A DNA stretch of 64,000 nucleotides from an uncultured delta proteobacterium (GTDB lineage: Bacteria; Desulfobacterota; Binatia; HRBIN30; BPIQ01). The stretch spans positions 800,001 to 864,000 of the forward strand of contig CAVXGR010000018.1 in the NCBI GenBank assembly GCA_963761335.1, read 5' to 3'. The position numbers are program-made. The stretch's first letter is position 1. Each line of letters opens with the position of its first letter. Shown piece after piece: positions 39,001 to 45,000 of this stretch.

Positions 39001-42000
39001 CACCGGCTACGCCAAGCTGCTGATCGGCGGCTTGAGCTGGGCGACGGGGCAGAACCTGGCGACCTTCATCCACTCGGATTCGATCATGTATCTGAACGGT
39101 ATTCCCGTCGTCGGCCGCTTCCTCATGGACCACGCGTGGCTTGCCGACGCCTCCGCGGTAGCCACGGTGGTGCTCGAATGCGGTTTTCTGGTGGGCGTGC
39201 TGCTGGGCCTGCCCATAACGCCGTTCATTCTCGGACTGGCCGGGCTGCACGTCATGATCGCGCTCGGGATGCGCATCTTCTTCTTCGATCAGTTTCTGCT
39301 CTATTTGCTGTTCGTTCCCTGGGATCGGCTGTACGCGCGGCTGGCAGGCACCCAGCCGGTCACGGTCGTCTACGACGCCGGGTCGGAGCTCTGTGCCCGC
39401 ATCCTGCTCCTCTTCAAGCATCTGGACATCCACGACAGCATCGCCTTCCGCCCGGCGGCGGATCTCCTTGCCGGGGGCGAGCCGCCGCGCTTCGGCTCCA
39501 CCCCGAGGATACTCCTCCTGCGGGATGGAGAATCGTACGCGGGATACCACGCCTTCCGTGAGCTGCTGCGGCACTGCGGAATTTTCGCGCCGCTGGTTTG
39601 GATCATGGGTTGGCCCCCGGTCGCACGGGCCGGCGAACGCGCCTGCCGGCGGATTGCTGGCAGGGGCGTGCCTGGACATGGCGAGCGTTGACCGCGGTTT
39701 TCGAACCCGGATGACGCGGCAGACGATGTTGCGCACGCTGCCTCGGTCCGCTACGGTGCCTCGCGACGGTATCCGCCCCTCCGGCACGGTGGTTGCCGGA
39801 AGGTCGGCCGGCATTCACTGTTCATCGTTCGAGTCCGAGGGAGGCTTTGAAATGCGGGCGACAAGCAGATGGCTCGGTATGGCGACGGCGCTGCTGGCGG
39901 TCTCGGGTCTGATCGCCGCATGCACCGACGACTTCGACATCACCGTCTATCCGCGGGCGGGAAGAAGAAATAGCTGACACGGCGCAGGGCTGGCGGATGG
40001 CATGGCGATATCCCCGTTCGGCCGCTCTGCGATCAAGCGCCTGCACCTCGCATAGGATCTGCTCGCCGTGAATCGGAAATGGGCTCGGAGCGCTTGGACC
40101 CTGCTCGGCCTCGGCCTCGCCGGGCTGGGGGTGAGCCTTTATCTTCTCTCCGTTCACCGGGCGATCGCGGCGGCGCAGGGAGCTGGCTACACCGGCTTCT
40201 GCAACATCAACGAGACGGTGAACTGCGAGGTCGTGCTCTCCAGCCGGTACGCGTATTTGTTCGGCTATCCGGTTGCCGGCTGGGCCGCGCTCGCCTACCT
40301 CGGGCTCCTTGGCCTGGCGGCGGCGATGCTGCGCGTGTCGCGCTTCTCCACGCGCCGGCGCCTGGCACAGCTCACCTTCGGCTTCGTGGCTTGGAACGCA
40401 ATCTTCTCGTACTACATGGCGGCCGTCGCCCTCTTCTCCATCGGCGCCATCTGCATCTTGTGTACCTCGCTGTACGTCATCAACACCGCGGCACTTCCGG
40501 CCGGTTGGATGCTGTACGCTGGCGTCGAAGCCGAGGGTCGGAAGCGAGGTTCCGCTTCGCCGGACCTGGCGCGTCGCAACCGCCTGGTGATCGGCGGCTC
40601 CGTAGCCGTTCTGGTCGCCATTCTGGCGCTGGCGGCGTACGAGGGGCGGCGCGGAGGTGCGCAGACTCTCGACGAAATTCGCCGTGCCAATCCAGATTTC
40701 TACCGCTGGTACACCAGTCAGCCGATCGAGCAGGTTCCCGCCGTCGGTCGCGATCTCGGCGGCCCCGACGCCGCGGTCACCATCATCGAGTTCTCCGATT
40801 TCGAGTGCGGCCACTGCGCCGCCGCACACCGCGTTTTGCAGGAGGTCCTGCCGCGCTATCGCGGCGAGGTTCGAGTCGTGTTTCGCAACTACCCGCTCGA
40901 CAAGTCGTGCAATCCGCTGCTGACCACGCAGCTGCACGACTACGCATGCGAAGCCGCAGTGGCCGCGGAGTGCGCCGGCGAGCAGGGCAAGTTCTGGCCG
41001 TACCACGATCTTCTCTTCGAGAATCAGAGCGACCTGTCGCCCGAGAACCTGCGCCGTTTCGCGCGCCAGCTGAAGCTCGACATGGACGCTTTCCAGAGCT
41101 GCCTCGGCAGCGAGAAGGCGCACGAGCGCGTGAAGCAGGACGTCGAAGAAGGAAATCGCCTGCGCATCGAGTCGACGCCGACGATGTTCATCAACGGCCG
41201 CGTGATTCACGGCTCTCTCGACGCCGACCTGCTTCGCTACGCAATCGCCATCGAACGCGCCAAGCTGCAGTCGTTGCGAGAGAATCGCGATCGCGACGCG
41301 GTGGCGCGCGCGTTTCCGCGCCGCCCTGCCGCTCGCGTCGAGCGCCGCGCCAGCGCCTGAGGCAATCGATGCTAGCGCCGGCGCTAACGTTTACGTTGAC
41401 ACCTCTCCGGCACGGCGCTTGCGCGGAACGAATTTGAAGTGTTCGAGAAAATTTTCTTGACAACGAAAACCACTGCGACTAATTAGGCAAGCTCTCGTTT
41501 CCCAAACACACAAACGAAACCAAGAATGAGTCTTTCGGCAACTCTCTTCGCCCTTCCCAAGTCGGAAGGCGAGAAGGGGCTGTTGAGCCTTGCTGTGCAC
41601 AGACATGTGGATGAGTGTTGCAAGTGGCGAGGAGCGGGACGCTTTCCGACTTATCCGCAGTGTGGACAAACTGTTGTGGTGCAGGGAGGAACGCGGGGGA
41701 GCGTTCTTCGGGAGGGGCGGCACGCGATGGGAACAATCTGGGGCCGGGTACTGCCCATTCTGCGCGAGCAGGTGGGCGAGCGCAGCTTTCAAACGTGGAT
41801 CGAGCCGCTGCGCGGCGTGGAGGAAGAAGGAGGAATCCGACTGGAGGTTCCCAGTCGGTTCCATCAGGAATGGATCTCGCGCAACTTTCTGTTGGCCATA
41901 CGGGAGGCGCTGGCGCGCCTCGCCGGAGCACCTCGGGAAGTTCGCGTCGTCATCTGCAGCGACATCGCAACGCCGCCGCCGGCGAGAGGGCCGATGCGCG

Positions 42001-45000
42001 CCGGCGACGGCGTGTCGCGCGAGCGGCGTCCGGTCTTCGGCCGGCTGGTGGCGACGCACACTTTCTCCAATCTGGTCGTCGGCGAGTCGAACCGGATGGC
42101 GCATGACGCGGCGCGGGCGGTGGCGCGCGAGCCGGGGCGCGAGTTCAACCCGCTCTTCATTCACGGCGGGGTAGGGCTGGGAAAGACGCATCTGGTGAAC
42201 GCGGTCGCGCACGAGTTTCTCGGCCGCTCCACCCGACAGCGGATCGCCTGCCTCGCTGCCGAGACGTTCATGAACAATCTGATCACCTGCCTTCGGCAGG
42301 ATCAGATGGGATCGTTTCGCCAGCGATTCCGAAACCTCGACGTGCTGATTCTCGACGATGTGCAGTTCCTCGCCGGGAAGGAGCGCACCCAGGAGGAGTT
42401 CTTCCACACCTTCAATGCCTTGCACGCCGAGGGAAGGCAGATCGTGCTGACGTCGGACAAGGCGCCGGGCGGAATCAAGGGGCTCGAGCAACGACTGCGG
42501 AGCCGCTTCGACGGGGGCTTGACCGCGTACATCCATCCGCCCACGTACGAGATGCGGGTGGCGATCGCCGAGCGCAAGGCCGCGGCACGCGGCGTGGATC
42601 TGCCGCGCGAAGTAGCCGTGTATCTGTCGCAGCGCGTCGGCTCGAGCGTGCGCGAGCTCGAGGGAGCGTTGACGCGAGTCGTTGCCACGGCGGCGTTGCG
42701 GCGAATGCCGATCACCTTGGCGCTGGCACAGGAATCGCTCGCCGCCTACGGAGCACAAGTAGCGGCGCTCTCGCTCGACGAGATCATCGAGCAGGTGAGC
42801 ATCGAGTTTCGCGTCGCGCCGGCGGATCTGAAGTCGTCGGGGCGGGCGCAGGCGCTGATCCTGCCGCGCCACCTCGCCATGTATCTCTGCCGCACGCTCG
42901 CCTTGGCATCGTTTGCGAGCATCGGTGAAAAGCTTGGGGGCCGGGATCACTCAACGGTGATGCACGCGGTGCGGGGGGTGGAACGGAAGAGGGAGGCCGA
43001 TTCGGCCACGGCCTCCCTCATCGCACGCCTGGAATCGGCGCTGCGGGGACGTGCCGAGGCCGCCGAGCGCGGTCCCGGCGAGCGTCGCTGCGCTCGCTGA
43101 GGCGTCGCGGAGAAGGGTGACGCGCCGTCCCGGGGTTGCCGGGGGTGGGGGAGGAGGTTGTGCGGGCGGCGCGTTCACCCGCTGTCCCTGAAGGCCGGGC
43201 CGGCGAAGGCAGGCTCTCCCAAGCCGGGAAAGCCGCGGGCCGTCGCTTGCGGGGCCCGCTTATTGACAAATCCGCATGTGGAGAGAAAAGTAGCGAACTC
43301 TCAGGGTCGCAGAGGAAGCACATCAAAGAGAATATGTACAAGCGTGCGCGCCGAGCGGCGTTACTCCTTTTGTCGCTCGTGCTCGTCACGAGTCAGGTGG
43401 CTTCGGCCAGTGTCTACCTCCTGAAAGGCAACGGCGACGGCAGCTTCGCTCCCTTTCCGAACCCGGAGATCGCCACCGGCGGGGGCGGGGGGGCCGCCAT
43501 CGTTGCCGGAGACTTCAACGGCGACCGGCGCCTGGATCTGGCGATATCCAATGCCGACACGGGCAACGTCTCCGTTCTGATCTCGAATGGCGACGGTACC
43601 TTCCAGACGCCCATCATCCTCCCCGCCGGGGATACTCCCGGGGCGCTGGTGGCCGCGGACTTCAACAGCGACGGCTTCGACGACGTGGCGGTGATCAATA
43701 CGAACGCCGACGTGGTCGACAACATCAACGTCTATCTCCGCGACCAGTCGCACAACCGCTTTGTCTCTGCTCCTGGAGACGTGGTCGTGGATGCCGGCCC
43801 GATCGGTCTGGTCGCCGCCGACTTCGACCACGATTCGGGGCGCACCATCGACTTGCTGGCCGCGCAGGGCGCCAGTGGCGGCGTTACCAACATGTTCCTC
43901 AACCTGAACGAGGGCAGCGGATCGTTCATGCCGCCGCCGGGCGGGCAGCCGAATGCCCTCAACCTGGGCACCGAGCAGGAGGCTCTCGCCACCGGCGATC
44001 TGAACGGCGACAACCTTCCCGACGTGGTGGTTTTCCCTGATCCGCCGAGCCAAATCTTCGTCCTGCGCAATACCACCACAGGCGGCACGGTCAGCTTCGG
44101 CAGAAGCAGTCTGAGCCTGTCCAGTGGGGACGACTTTCCGGATCAGGTCGATTACCCCCAAGGGATCGTCCTGGCCGACGTCAACCGCGACAGCAAGCTC
44201 GACTTGGTCATAGCGGATAACTTCGACGACCAGGTACTGATTTTGACCGGCAACGGCAACGCCACGTTCTCTGGGACTCCGATCATGATTCCGACGACCG
44301 GACTCGGTCCCTCGTCGGTGGCGGTTGCCGATTTGCGCAGCTCAAACGACATCGTGGTGACCAATCAGGACGACGATACGGTGACGGTGCTGTTGCAGGG
44401 GAACGACAACGGCAGCTTTCCCGACACGCAGACCTACGACGTCAACGGCGAGCCGATCGGCGTCGCCGTGCTCGACCTCGACGGCGACGGCAAGCTCGAC
44501 CTGGCGGTGCTGAGCCCTTTCGAGCAAGGCGTCGTTGCCACCGTCACGCCGACCTTCACGCCGGCTCCCAACGTACCCTCGGCGACGCCGACGACCCCGG
44601 CGCCGACCAACACCCCAACCATCACCTCGACCGCGACCTCCACCCCGACTCCGGTGCCGACCGCGGCGCTGGGGCTGTGCAACCTCCGCCTTCCGGGCCC
44701 GGGTCTGCCGACGGCCACTGCCGGTCCATTGACCTCGCAGCCGGATGGGGTGACCAGCGGCGACTTCGACGGCGACGCCCACATGGATATCGCCGTCAGC
44801 GACGCCCTCAATAACCGGATCCTGATCTTCTCGCAGTTTGGTGTCCTCCCCAACAGCGGCGCCTTGACGGCGCGGGCGGTGCGCAATGCGCCGCTGGCAG
44901 TGAACCCGTGCGAACCCGGTCCGCCCGACTTCCCGCAGATCCAAGTGTCCGCCGATGTTACGGAAGTGACCGGCGCCGGACTCTCCAATCCGGGCGCGCT

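What a model noticed while it worked through the whole genome (the two positions that open the first line are those of the whole stretch)
41361..43100. A second, full-length DnaA paralog (DnaA2) conserved across the order, with its own DnaA-box cluster but no origin signa [...]
Besides the canonical dnaA-dnaN-gyrB-gyrA locus (g02616, C13:340460-341812) the genome encodes a second complete DnaA (g04393, C18:841727-843100, 457 aa, 48% identical to DnaA1) that keeps the Walker A/B, arginine-finger and DnaA-signature (GGRDHSTV) motifs. It is not a recent or mobile copy: an orthologous DnaA2 with conserved neighbours is present in nearly every genome of the order HRBIN30. The two strongest DnaA-box clusters of the genome lie in the dnaA1-dnaN spacer and directly upstream of dnaA2, but only the dnaA1 locus sits at a GC-skew minimum, so DnaA2 is more likely a DnaA-box-binding regulator or auxiliary initiator than the marker of a second origin.
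Evidence so far: Both genes pass the equivalog model TIGR00362 (536 and 464 bits, cut 343.9, full length; calls 78, 79). 29 of 30 other HRBIN30 genomes (>=95% complete) have two matches over the cut-off, the 30th one; of 21 genomes of other Binatia orders 10 have two and 11 one. ML tree of 12 sequences: DnaA1 clade 99/97 (all 5 relatives' copies next to dnaN by tblastn), HRBIN30 DnaA2 clade 99/97 (G000, G002, G003, G005); second copies of two other orders form a separate clade. A VKOR-DsbA gene (g04392) precedes dnaA2 in G003 and G005, an FG-GAP gene follows it in G002 and G005; neighbours.tsv: VKOR next to Bac_DnaA in 35 of 51 genomes of the order and only 51 genomes overall. Motifs aligned in call 82. 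TTAT [...]
(Added by a program. Inside this text positions count along the whole contig: contig position 800,001 is position 1 of the stretch shown here. "Call 12" and the like, gene names such as g00115 and contig names such as C1 are that model's own, and its searches are not shown. The text may have been shortened before it was handed on; [...] marks where a part breaks off. The agent that wrote the report below was given it as the finding of a first reader that could run no searches.)

Follow-up and report, generated by a model that had tools for sequence, protein, structure and literature searches.

The report
Ancient second DnaA, no second origin
This soil bacterium and its whole order carry two complete copies of the protein that starts chromosome replication; the second copy marks no replication origin of its own, yet it has kept the original gene's control region and helicase-recruiting front domain, which the origin-linked copy has lost.

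Summary
Window 41727-43100 (+) encodes a complete four-domain DnaA of 457 aa (TIGR00362 464 bits, cut-off 343.9). It is 48% identical to the dnaN-linked DnaA1 on contig C13.

By my reading, 45 of 52 genomes of the order have two over-cut-off copies. The DnaA2 clade has 100/100 support and follows the family structure. VKOR-DsbA lies upstream in 25 of 31 other loci, so the copy is old and vertically inherited.

It marks no origin. GC skew runs straight through dnaA2 in G000. In the near-closed relative G008 a sharp V-minimum sits exactly at dnaA1.

New here:
- The box cluster is part of a conserved promoter plus a ~240-nt leader. Its inverted DnaA-box pair also stands upstream of single-copy dnaA genes of the class, so it is the inherited dnaA operator.
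- The paralogs are complementary. DnaA2 keeps a canonical domain I (the Phe and Trp equivalents are present in 31/31 DnaA2 and 0/19 DnaA1), while DnaA1 keeps the more conserved ATPase and DNA-binding domains.
- In G001, G203 and G096 the dnaN-linked copy lacks domain I altogether.

Most likely DnaA2 is an autoregulated co-initiator or modulator acting with DnaA1 at the one oriC. This is an inference and was not tested.

The parts
40068..41360 (+). VKOR-DsbA fusion gene, the conserved upstream neighbour of dnaA2
   Evidence: Pfam VKOR, Thioredoxin_4 and DSBA. A homologue lies directly upstream on the same strand in 25 of 31 other dnaA2 loci of the order (24 of 30 without the unpublished G020).
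41446..41485 (+). Inferred promoter: A/T-rich tract, -35 TTGACA (41457-41462), 17-nt spacer, -10-like TAATTA (41480-41485)
   Evidence: GAAAAATTTCTTGAC(A/T) with a TAnnnn element 16-18 nt downstream aligns in all 31 loci. The strict sigma-70 consensus scan found no site. There are no RNA data.
41493..41726 (+). Conserved 5' leader of about 235 nt
   Evidence: The leader is 238-289 nt long in 31 loci, and most are 240-250 nt. Twenty columns are invariant in alignment A1. There is no Rfam match. No reading frame is conserved from the conserved ATG at 41526.
41549..41571 (+). Small hairpin CGCCCTTCC-loop-GGAAGGCG in the leader
   Evidence: Pairs 89-95 with 104-110 of A1 are 75% paired, and 4 pairs show changes on both sides. 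The support is modest.
41594..41614 (-). Two box-like TGTG motifs 12 nt apart: TGTGCAC (41594-41600) and TGTGGATGA (41606-41614)
   Evidence: TGTG at A1 positions 102-105 is invariant, and the second motif is nearly invariant. The box at 41606 has one mismatch.
41651..41669 (.). Inverted DnaA-box pair TTATCCGCA-g-TGTGGACAA, the inferred operator
   Evidence: A pair is present 49-115 nt upstream of the start in 30 of 32 dnaA2 loci of the order. The homologous pair TTATCCACA-nn-TGTGGATAA stands upstream of 4 of 8 single-copy dnaA genes of the class.
41710..41717 (+). Shine-Dalgarno GGGAGGGG
   Evidence: GGAGGGG is conserved 8-12 nt before the ATG in alignment A1.
41727..43100 (+). dnaA2, 457 aa, a full-length DnaA paralog
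43136..46213 (+). FG-GAP repeat protein, a frequent downstream neighbour
   Evidence: Pfam FG-GAP_3 and FG-GAP. An FG-GAP-like gene lies downstream in 13 of 31 other loci.

Best explanation
dnaA2 is an old, vertically inherited duplicate of the chromosomal initiator gene. The duplication took the ancestral promoter, the long leader and the DnaA-box operator with it, but not oriC or dnaN. Both copies remain complete ATP-dependent DnaA proteins, and they have divided what they conserve.

The dnaN/oriC-linked DnaA1 keeps the slowly evolving AAA+ and DNA-binding domains. Its domain I has diverged: the Phe and Trp that in E. coli (recalled numbering F46, W50) belong to the helicase-contact face are lost, and in some genomes the whole domain is gone. 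DnaA2 keeps a canonical domain I and evolves faster elsewhere.

I infer three things.
- DnaA2 is made from its own promoter and is held in check by DnaA-type binding to the inverted box pair in its leader.
- It binds the same box family as DnaA1.
- It works with DnaA1 at the single origin in the dnaA1-dnaN spacer as a co-initiator or modulator, contributing the domain-I contacts.

Shown here: the gene, its age, its synteny, the absence of an origin signature, the conserved control region and the complementary conservation. Inferred: the binding, the autoregulation and joint action at oriC.
For: Identity as a complete DnaA.
- Full-length match over the equivalog cut-off.
- Alignment over residues 4-421 to the B. 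subtilis DnaA structure 8BTG, E 5e-98.
- In 31 of 31 DnaA2 orthologues: Walker A K and T, both Walker B Asp, sensor I Thr, the arginine finger, sensor II Arg, and the equivalents of the single-strand-binding residues V211 and R245.

Age and vertical descent.
- The DnaA2 clade has support 100/100 and the DnaA1 clade 100/99.
- The topology follows families f1-f4.
- The VKOR-DsbA neighbour is present in 25 of 31 loci.

No origin of its own.
- dnaN follows 13 of 13 DnaA1 loci and 0 of 32 DnaA2 loci.
- Skew is monotone through dnaA2 in G000.
- In G008 both genes lie on one 4.77-Mb contig, with the V-minimum exactly at dnaA1 and no inflection at dnaA2.

Inherited control region.
- A conserved -35 element and a leader of constant length occur in 31 of 31 loci.
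- The inverted box pair occurs in 30 of 32 dnaA2 loci and before 4 of 8 single-copy dnaA genes of the class.

Complementary conservation, in 16 genomes with both copies.
- Domain I: DnaA2 57.6% versus DnaA1 44.5% identity (DnaA2 higher in 94 of 120 pairs).
- Domain III: 67.9% versus 82.9%.
- Domain IV: 60.3% versus 73.4% (DnaA1 higher in 118 of 120 pairs for each of III and IV).

Pfam DnaA_N scores.
- DnaA2: 9 of 9 at 57-68 bits.
- Single-copy DnaA: 6 of 7 at 61-71 bits.
- DnaA1: 8 of 12 at 25-40 bits, 1 below the cut-off, 3 with no match.

Key domain-I residues.
- F46 equivalent: Phe in 31 of 31 DnaA2, 7 of 8 single-copy, 0 of 19 DnaA1.
- W50 equivalent: Trp in 31 of 31, 8 of 8 and 0 of 19.

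The dnaN-linked copy has no domain I at all in G001, G203 and G096, each of which has a full-length second copy.
Against: There are no functional or expression data, and no RNA run holds the locus.

Two genomes of the phylum, G111 (100% complete) and G114 (91% complete), have a single DnaA that also lacks domain I. A domain-I-less DnaA therefore does not by itself require a partner DnaA.

DnaA1 domain I is still conserved within most of the order, with 8 of 12 above the Pfam cut-off. It is probably functional with other contacts.

DnaA2's faster-evolving ATPase and DNA-binding domains would also fit a regulator under looser constraint. Changes at DNA-contact positions point the same way: the H439 equivalent is His in 17 and Tyr in 14, the P423 equivalent is Pro in 25 of 31, and G000 itself has Ala there plus Gln to His in PRQ.

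In a second group of families (f5, f85, f87, f89, f90) the pattern is reversed. There the dnaN-linked copy has the canonical domain I and the box pair. The division of labour is therefore not a general property of two-DnaA genomes.

The promoter fails the strict consensus scan.

The E. coli residue equivalences are recalled, not looked up.
Confidence: 0.45

Rival explanations
1. DnaA2 is a DnaA-derived regulator and not an initiator. It binds DnaA boxes at its own leader, at the dnaA1 promoter and perhaps at oriC. It acts as a transcription factor or as a brake on initiation, by titration or by mixed inactive oligomers. It does not take part in origin opening or helicase loading.
For: - It is separated from oriC and dnaN in 32 of 32 loci.
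- Its AAA+ and DNA-binding domains evolve faster than those of DnaA1.
- DNA-contact positions vary.
- A conserved operator stands in its own leader.
- In G008 the loss of the R399-equivalent Arg coincides with a decayed operator. This is one case.
Against: A pure DNA-binding regulator has no obvious need for an invariant arginine finger, invariant single-strand-binding residues and a canonical domain I with the Phe and Trp kept in 31 of 31. No other inverted box pair exists in the G000 genome that would suggest a regulon: the core pattern gave one unrelated hit.
Confidence: 0.3
2. DnaA2 is a condition-specific alternative initiator. It acts at the same oriC but is expressed under other growth states, such as slow growth or stress, from its differently wired promoter. 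The two proteins would then be used in turn and not together.
For: Both copies are catalytically complete. The operator geometry differs: in dnaA1 the box pair overlaps the -10 region, while in dnaA2 it lies about 160 nt downstream of the inferred promoter inside a long leader. The leader shows modest covariation for two helices, which could add an RNA-level control.
Against: This does not explain why domain I decays or is lost specifically in the oriC-linked copy. There are no expression data. The RNA structure signal is weak: the consensus energy is -7.6 kcal/mol, and the slide +2 control keeps 65% of cells paired.
Confidence: 0.15
3. The dnaA2 leader, with its A/T-rich tract and DnaA boxes, is a second replication origin, dormant or conditional, fired by DnaA2.
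For: The leader is one of the only two clusters of three boxes in the genome. An A/T-richer stretch at about 41430-41530 lies in a 68% GC genome. Bipartite origins that flank dnaA are known in other bacteria (recalled).
Against: There is no skew inflection at dnaA2 in G000. There is none in G008 either, where the control at dnaA1 gives a sharp V. The A/T-rich tract coincides with the conserved promoter. The same operator stands before single-copy dnaA genes, whose dnaA-dnaN spacer carries its own boxes.
Confidence: 0.05

Closest known systems
Canonical DnaA (TIGR00362; B. subtilis DnaA, PDB 8BTG)
   Same: The four-domain architecture, all ATPase motifs, the DnaA signature in domain IV, and a full-length alignment.
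   Different: It is not next to dnaN or oriC and not at a skew minimum. It is a second copy in the genome. It has clade-specific changes, such as Gly for the usual Trp in RFxWGL in 31 of 31.
Genomes with two complete dnaA genes (Chlamydiales, Desulfovibrionia), mentioned in bioRxiv 10.1101/2025.08.05.668638
   Same: Two full-length dnaA genes on one chromosome. I saw only the passage found by paper reading, which states the fact without assigning a function.
   Different: That passage names other lineages. In my searches I found no paper on two DnaA genes in Binatia. The Binatota genome paper PMC8262859 has 0 occurrences of 'DnaA'. The complementary domain conservation described here is not mentioned in what I read.
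Autoregulation of dnaA through DnaA boxes in its own promoter region (E. coli, B. subtilis; recalled, not read here)
   Same: DnaA boxes are conserved in position next to or within the dnaA promoter and leader.
   Different: Here the operator is an inverted pair with 1-3 bp between the 9-mers (2 in most loci, 1 in G000). It lies about 160 nt downstream of the inferred promoter in a ~240-nt conserved leader. Its left half-site is TCCCCA where the usual site reads TCCACA. Binding was not tested.
Hda/HdaA (DnaA-related regulators of initiation)
   Same: A related AAA+ module (TIGR03420 105 bits).
   Different: The score is below the cut-off of 194.8. DnaA2 also has domains I and IV, which Hda lacks (recalled).
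Tandem dnaA-dnaA of Acidaminococcus fermentans (Gao 2015, PMC4403523; passage seen)
   Same: Two dnaA genes in one chromosome.
   Different: In A. fermentans the two genes sit side by side inside the rpmH-dnaA-dnaA-dnaN cluster with predicted origins. Here the copies lie far apart, 1.33 Mb in G008.

Membership tests
DnaA, chromosomal replication initiator (TIGR00362 equivalog) | Full-length match over the curated cut-off | tested here: met
   464.4 bits against a cut-off of 343.9, model positions 1-436 of 437.
DnaA, chromosomal replication initiator (TIGR00362 equivalog) | Domains I, III and IV (DnaA_N, Bac_DnaA, Bac_DnaA_C) | tested here: met
   61.6, 207.6 and 88.9 bits, all over the Pfam cut-offs.
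DnaA, chromosomal replication initiator (TIGR00362 equivalog) | Walker A/B, sensor I/II, arginine finger | tested here: met
   Invariant in 31 of 31 DnaA2 orthologues, G000 included.
DnaA, chromosomal replication initiator (TIGR00362 equivalog) | DnaA-box contact residues of domain IV (E. coli R399, P423, D433, H434, T435, H439; numbering recalled) | tested here: inconclusive
   G000 DnaA2 keeps the R, D, H, S and H equivalents but has Ala at the P423 equivalent and His for Gln in PRQ. Across the clade the P423 equivalent is Pro in 25 of 31, and the H439 equivalent is His in 17 and Tyr in 14.
DnaA, chromosomal replication initiator (TIGR00362 equivalog) | Acts as the initiator at oriC | not testable with these tools
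   The gene is not linked to dnaN (0 of 32) or to a skew minimum. This does not say where the protein acts.
Marker of a second chromosomal origin | GC-skew inflection at the locus | tested here: not met
   Skew is monotone through dnaA2 in G000 and in G008. The control at dnaA1 gives a V-minimum.
Hda / HdaA | Match over the TIGR03420 cut-off; no domains I and IV | tested here: not met
   105 bits against a cut-off of 194.8. Domains I and IV are present.
Mobile or recently acquired dnaA copy | Patchy distribution, discordant phylogeny, variable context | tested here: not met
   45 of 52 genomes have two copies. The clade has 100/100 support with family-concordant topology. The VKOR neighbour is present in 25 of 31 loci.
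Structured RNA leader (riboswitch or known cis-regulatory RNA) | Rfam match or strong covariation | tested here: inconclusive
   No Rfam match at E up to 1. The RNAalifold consensus energy is -7.6 kcal/mol. Two helices show modest covariation: score 0.249 against at most 0.192 when slid, and 0 of 500 shuffles reached it.

The most novel reading that the evidence does not exclude
Replication at the single oriC of these bacteria needs two different DnaA proteins. DnaA1 is encoded beside the origin. It builds the box-bound, ATP-dependent filament but has lost the ancestral helicase-contact face of domain I, and in G001, G203 and G096 it has lost the whole domain. DnaA2 is encoded elsewhere behind the ancestral dnaA operator. 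It joins the filament and supplies the canonical domain I that recruits the helicase or its partners. This would be a naturally split, hetero-oligomeric bacterial initiator.
Probability: 0.25. Interest if true: 0.85.

Novelty: new variant of a known kind. Interest (0 to 1): 0.62.

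Why it matters
Bacterial replication initiation is taught as one initiator acting at one origin. 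Genomes with two complete DnaA proteins are mentioned in print only in passing, and in what I found no role is assigned to the second copy.

Here a whole order, and probably much of a class, has kept two copies for a long time. The two copies conserve complementary parts, and some genomes carry a domain-I-less origin-linked copy. This gives a concrete, testable hypothesis of division of labour between initiators. It also offers a natural series for separating the functions of domain I from those of the AAA+ and DNA-binding core.

The work also shows that a cluster of DnaA boxes next to a dnaA gene is not evidence of an origin. That matters for automatic origin prediction.

Tried and rejected
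- Second origin: rejected by skew in G000 and in G008.
- Upstream start at 41526 (524-aa ORF) or a conserved upstream ORF: the frame from the conserved ATG ends differently or runs on in different frames among 31 loci, so it is not conserved coding.
- Known RNA family in the leader: none. The RNAalifold structure is weak.
- Strict sigma-70 and terminator scans of 41200-41800: 0 sites. The promoter call rests on conservation only.
- Regulon search for further inverted pairs in G000: none with the full pattern, and one unrelated hit with the core pattern.
- Expression: no RNA holder listed among 9 runs, and the best DNA holder has 0.25 of the words. Nothing was laid.
- Deep phylogeny: one duplication or several could not be settled. 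The quick tree joins all second copies of the class (SH-aLRT 98), the careful tree leaves them unresolved, and the AU test gives p 0.447.
- Earlier findings of the scan: none on this genome for DnaA. Look-alikes elsewhere concern other kinds of DnaA paralogs.

Full report
**What is there.**
The window is G000:C18:800001-864000. An open frame ends at 43100. The start at 41727 follows a GGGAGGGG Shine-Dalgarno at 41710-41717 and gives a 457-aa protein, P0001. It matches the NCBIfam equivalog TIGR00362 over positions 1-436 of 437 with 464.4 bits (cut-off 343.9). It carries DnaA_N, Bac_DnaA and Bac_DnaA_C. It aligns over residues 4-421 with the solved B. subtilis DnaA, 8BTG, at E 5e-98.

The genome holds exactly two such genes. 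The other, DnaA1 at C13:340487-341794, scores 536 bits, is 48% identical and is followed by dnaN. Two long ORFs follow dnaN.

Upstream of dnaA2 lies a VKOR-DsbA fusion gene and downstream an FG-GAP repeat gene. The nearest public relatives of P0001, at 56-60% identity, are mostly titled Candidatus Binatia or (delta)proteobacterial MAGs; one carries a Margulisiibacteriota title.

**Distribution and age.**
I read the table for the 52 genomes of the order, G000 included.
- 45 have two matches over the cut-off.
- 7 have one. G015, G017, G021 and G050 show a split or partial second copy. G019, G037 and G051 show none. Five of the seven are 68-85% complete.
- The unpublished genome G020 is included; without it the count is 44 of 51.

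DnaA2 orthologues are only 50-60% identical to P0001.

I built two trees.
- Quick tree: IQ-TREE on 89 rows. I left out the duplicate L002, the partial L066 and the unpublished G020. The DnaA2 of the order form a clade with SH-aLRT 100, and its inner branching follows families f1, f4, f2 and f3.
- Careful tree: 66 rows, chosen by me to fit the time limit. DnaA2 has support 100/100 and DnaA1 has 100/99.

The VKOR-DsbA gene precedes dnaA2 in 25 of 31 other loci. An FG-GAP-like gene follows in 13 of 31. dnaN follows 13 of 13 DnaA1 loci and 0 of 32 DnaA2 loci. The copy is therefore old, chromosomal and vertically inherited.

**Beyond the order.**
I sampled 201 genomes of the class, all at least 90% complete. 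The sample includes the unpublished G020, G267, G352 and G355. Two copies are the rule in some families and one copy in others.
- Two copies: f1-f5, f79, f81, f84, f85, f87, f89, f90 and most of f7.
- One copy: f6, f80, f83, f86, f88 and most of f82.

A phylum sample of 151 genomes shows further two-copy lineages, f24 and f51 among them.

Whether all second copies descend from one duplication is open.
- The quick tree joins them (SH-aLRT 98).
- The careful tree leaves them in a polytomy.
- An AU test does not reject a single clade (lnL difference 1.24, p 0.447).

**No origin at dnaA2.**
On C18 the cumulative G-C skew rises over all 1.19 Mb. The slope is about 155 per 10 kb outside 730-890 kb and about 36 inside. 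There is a dip at 755-780 kb, but no minimum at 841.7 kb. On C13 the minimum lies at 340-360 kb, near dnaA1.

As an independent test I read 400 kb around each gene in G008. This is a relative of the order in which both genes lie on one 4.77-Mb contig, 1.33 Mb apart. The skew has a sharp V exactly at dnaA1. It runs straight through dnaA2, with every 10-kb bin from 1.14 to 1.39 Mb negative.

The dnaA1-dnaN spacer of G000 carries three boxes and a 45-nt A/T-rich tract, as expected of an origin.

**The box cluster is the ancestral dnaA control region.**
The three boxes at 41606, 41651 and 41661 are real and improbable by chance. The genome has 244 boxes with at most one mismatch in 6.26 Mb. Two windows hold three of them, against about 0.046 expected.

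Alignment of 31 orthologous upstream regions shows much more.
- An invariant TTGAC(A/T), preceded by an A/T-rich tract and followed after 16-18 nt by TAnnnn. In the window these are TTGACA at 41457-41462 and TAATTA at 41480-41485.
- A leader of nearly constant length, 238-289 nt and mostly 240-250.
- Twenty invariant columns within the leader.
- Conserved blocks: ATGAnTCTTGTCGG, a small hairpin, two TGTG motifs 12 nt apart, and the inverted pair TTGTCCCCA-nn-TGTGGATAA. In G000 the pair reads TTATCCGCA-g-TGTGGACAA, at 41651-41669.

A box with at most one mismatch sits 60-102 nt before the start in 26 of 29 orthologous loci. The pair is found in 30 of 32 loci (29 of 31 without G020).

The same arrangement stands elsewhere in the class.
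- TTATCCACA-nn-TGTGGATAA lies 60-104 nt before the start of 4 of 8 single-copy dnaA genes.
- It lies before the dnaN-linked copy in 4 of 12 two-copy genomes of other families.
- Five of 12 second copies of other families carry the TCCCCA variant.

dnaA1 of G000 has a degenerate version, TTAGTCACA-cc-TGTGGATAA, overlapping its own -10 region. The duplication therefore copied promoter, leader and operator. The cluster speaks for DnaA-dependent control of dnaA2 and not for an origin.

Several further checks on the leader gave little.
- The strict promoter scan finds no site, and there are no RNA data. The promoter is an inference from conservation.
- The leader matches no Rfam family.
- Its consensus fold is weak.
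- Two helices show modest covariation.
- No reading frame from the conserved ATG at 41526 is kept.

**Complementary conservation of the two proteins.**
All catalytic residues are invariant in both paralogs (31 DnaA2 and 19 DnaA1). The domains differ.

| Measure | DnaA2 | DnaA1 | Single-copy DnaA |
|---|---|---|---|
| Domain I identity to single-copy DnaA of the class | 31.3% | 22.5% | 31.2% among themselves |
| Domain III identity to single-copy DnaA | 52.0% | 67.3% | not applicable |
| Domain IV identity to single-copy DnaA | 42.2% | 49.4% | not applicable |
| Pfam DnaA_N score, cut-off 24.6 bits | 57-68 bits in 9 of 9 | 25-40 bits in 8 of 12, 16 bits in 1, none in 3 | 61-71 bits in 6 of 7 |
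| Phe at the E. coli F46 equivalent | 31 of 31 | 0 of 19 | 7 of 8 |
| Trp at the E. coli W50 equivalent | 31 of 31 | 0 of 19 | 8 of 8 |

The E. coli numbering is recalled, not looked up.

In 16 genomes with both copies (120 pairs), within-paralog identity is as follows.
- Domain I: 57.6% for DnaA2 and 44.5% for DnaA1. DnaA2 is higher in 94 pairs.
- Domain III: 67.9% and 82.9%.
- Domain IV: 60.3% and 73.4%. DnaA1 is higher in 118 pairs for each of domains III and IV.

In G001, of G000's own family, the dnaN-linked gene has a 385-aa open frame that starts right after its boxes. No domain I is detectable in any frame. The same holds for G203 and G096, and each has a full-length second copy.

**Against a simple reading.**
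- G111 and G114 have a single DnaA without domain I.
- In families f5, f85, f87, f89 and f90 the roles are reversed. The dnaN-linked copy has the canonical domain I and the box pair, and the second copy scores 34-42 bits.
- DnaA2 varies at DNA-contact positions, and G000's own protein has two such changes.
- In G008 the R399 equivalent is Gln and the operator is decayed. This is one anecdotal case of protein and operator changing together.

**Mechanism.**
I commit to this reading. DnaA2 is an autoregulated, ATP-dependent DnaA that binds the same box family and acts with DnaA1 at the one origin, contributing canonical domain-I contacts (confidence 0.45). The rivals are:
- a pure regulator or brake (0.30);
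- a condition-specific alternative initiator (0.15);
- a second origin (0.05).

Nothing about binding or activity was tested.

**Comparison with what is known.**
A 2025 preprint states in passing that two complete dnaA genes occur in Desulfovibrionia and Chlamydiales (passage seen). Gao 2015 describes tandem dnaA genes in A. fermentans (passage seen). My searches for DnaA paralogs and for Binatota turned up no paper on two DnaA genes in Binatia. The Binatota genome paper does not mention DnaA (0 occurrences). Supplements were not read.

I file this as a new variant of a known kind. The kind is known: DnaA paralogs in one chromosome. Three things are not described in what I could read:
- order-wide retention;
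- the ancestral operator on the non-origin copy;
- the reciprocal domain conservation.

Noticed in passing
window 37848-41360: A run of thiol-redox membrane genes lies upstream of dnaA2. A 409-aa membrane protein has a C-terminal DCC1-like thiol-disulfide oxidoreductase domain (38462-39691), and the VKOR-DsbA fusion follows (40068-41360). Why VKOR-DsbA stays linked to dnaA2 across the order is unexplained.
   Followed up: partly
G000 C18:730000-890000 (window included): The GC-skew slope falls from about 155 to about 36 per 10 kb over about 160 kb around the window, with a negative stretch at 755-780 kb. This may be an old inversion or a strand-neutral gene set. It is not a V-minimum.
   Followed up: partly
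G000 C15:178081 and C16:368879: The same stretch of at least 39 nt, holding a perfect TTATCCACA box, occurs on two contigs in opposite orientation. It is probably a repeated element.
   Followed up: no
G000 C18:470014: A perfect TGTGGATAA is followed after one base by a TTGTGGACG box-like 9-mer. It is one of the few two-box sites outside the dnaA loci.
   Followed up: no
loci L019, L021, L023-L030, L032, L033, L042, L044, about 90 nt upstream of the -35: Family f3 shares a further conserved motif, (A/C)TCGnnnnnCGAT followed by an A/T-rich ATA(T/A), upstream of the dnaA2 promoter. It may be another regulator's site or a divergent promoter.
   Followed up: no
L080 (G008:C3:1321893-1326227): In G008 the DnaA2 protein has Gln at the R399-equivalent position and its upstream box pair is decayed (TCGTTCTGAATTGTGAACGA). 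This is a single case of protein and operator changing together.
   Followed up: partly
G111:C63:10489-11556 and G114:C207:15643-16752: Two genomes of the phylum have one DnaA only, in open frames of 363 and 378 aa that match TIGR00362 from position 82 or 68 onward. Each is a sole initiator without domain I.
   Followed up: partly
window 41526-41726: In G000 the leader is open in frame with dnaA2 from an ATG at 41526, giving a 524-aa ORF. In 10 of 31 orthologues the frame from that ATG stops exactly at the TAA of the TGTGGATAA box. In others it runs in other frames.
   Followed up: yes
families f5, f85, f87, f89, f90 (loci L053, L055, L057-L059, L068-L074): A second group of two-DnaA families shows the reverse arrangement. 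The dnaN-linked copy keeps the canonical domain I and the box pair, and the distant copy is the diverged one.
   Followed up: partly
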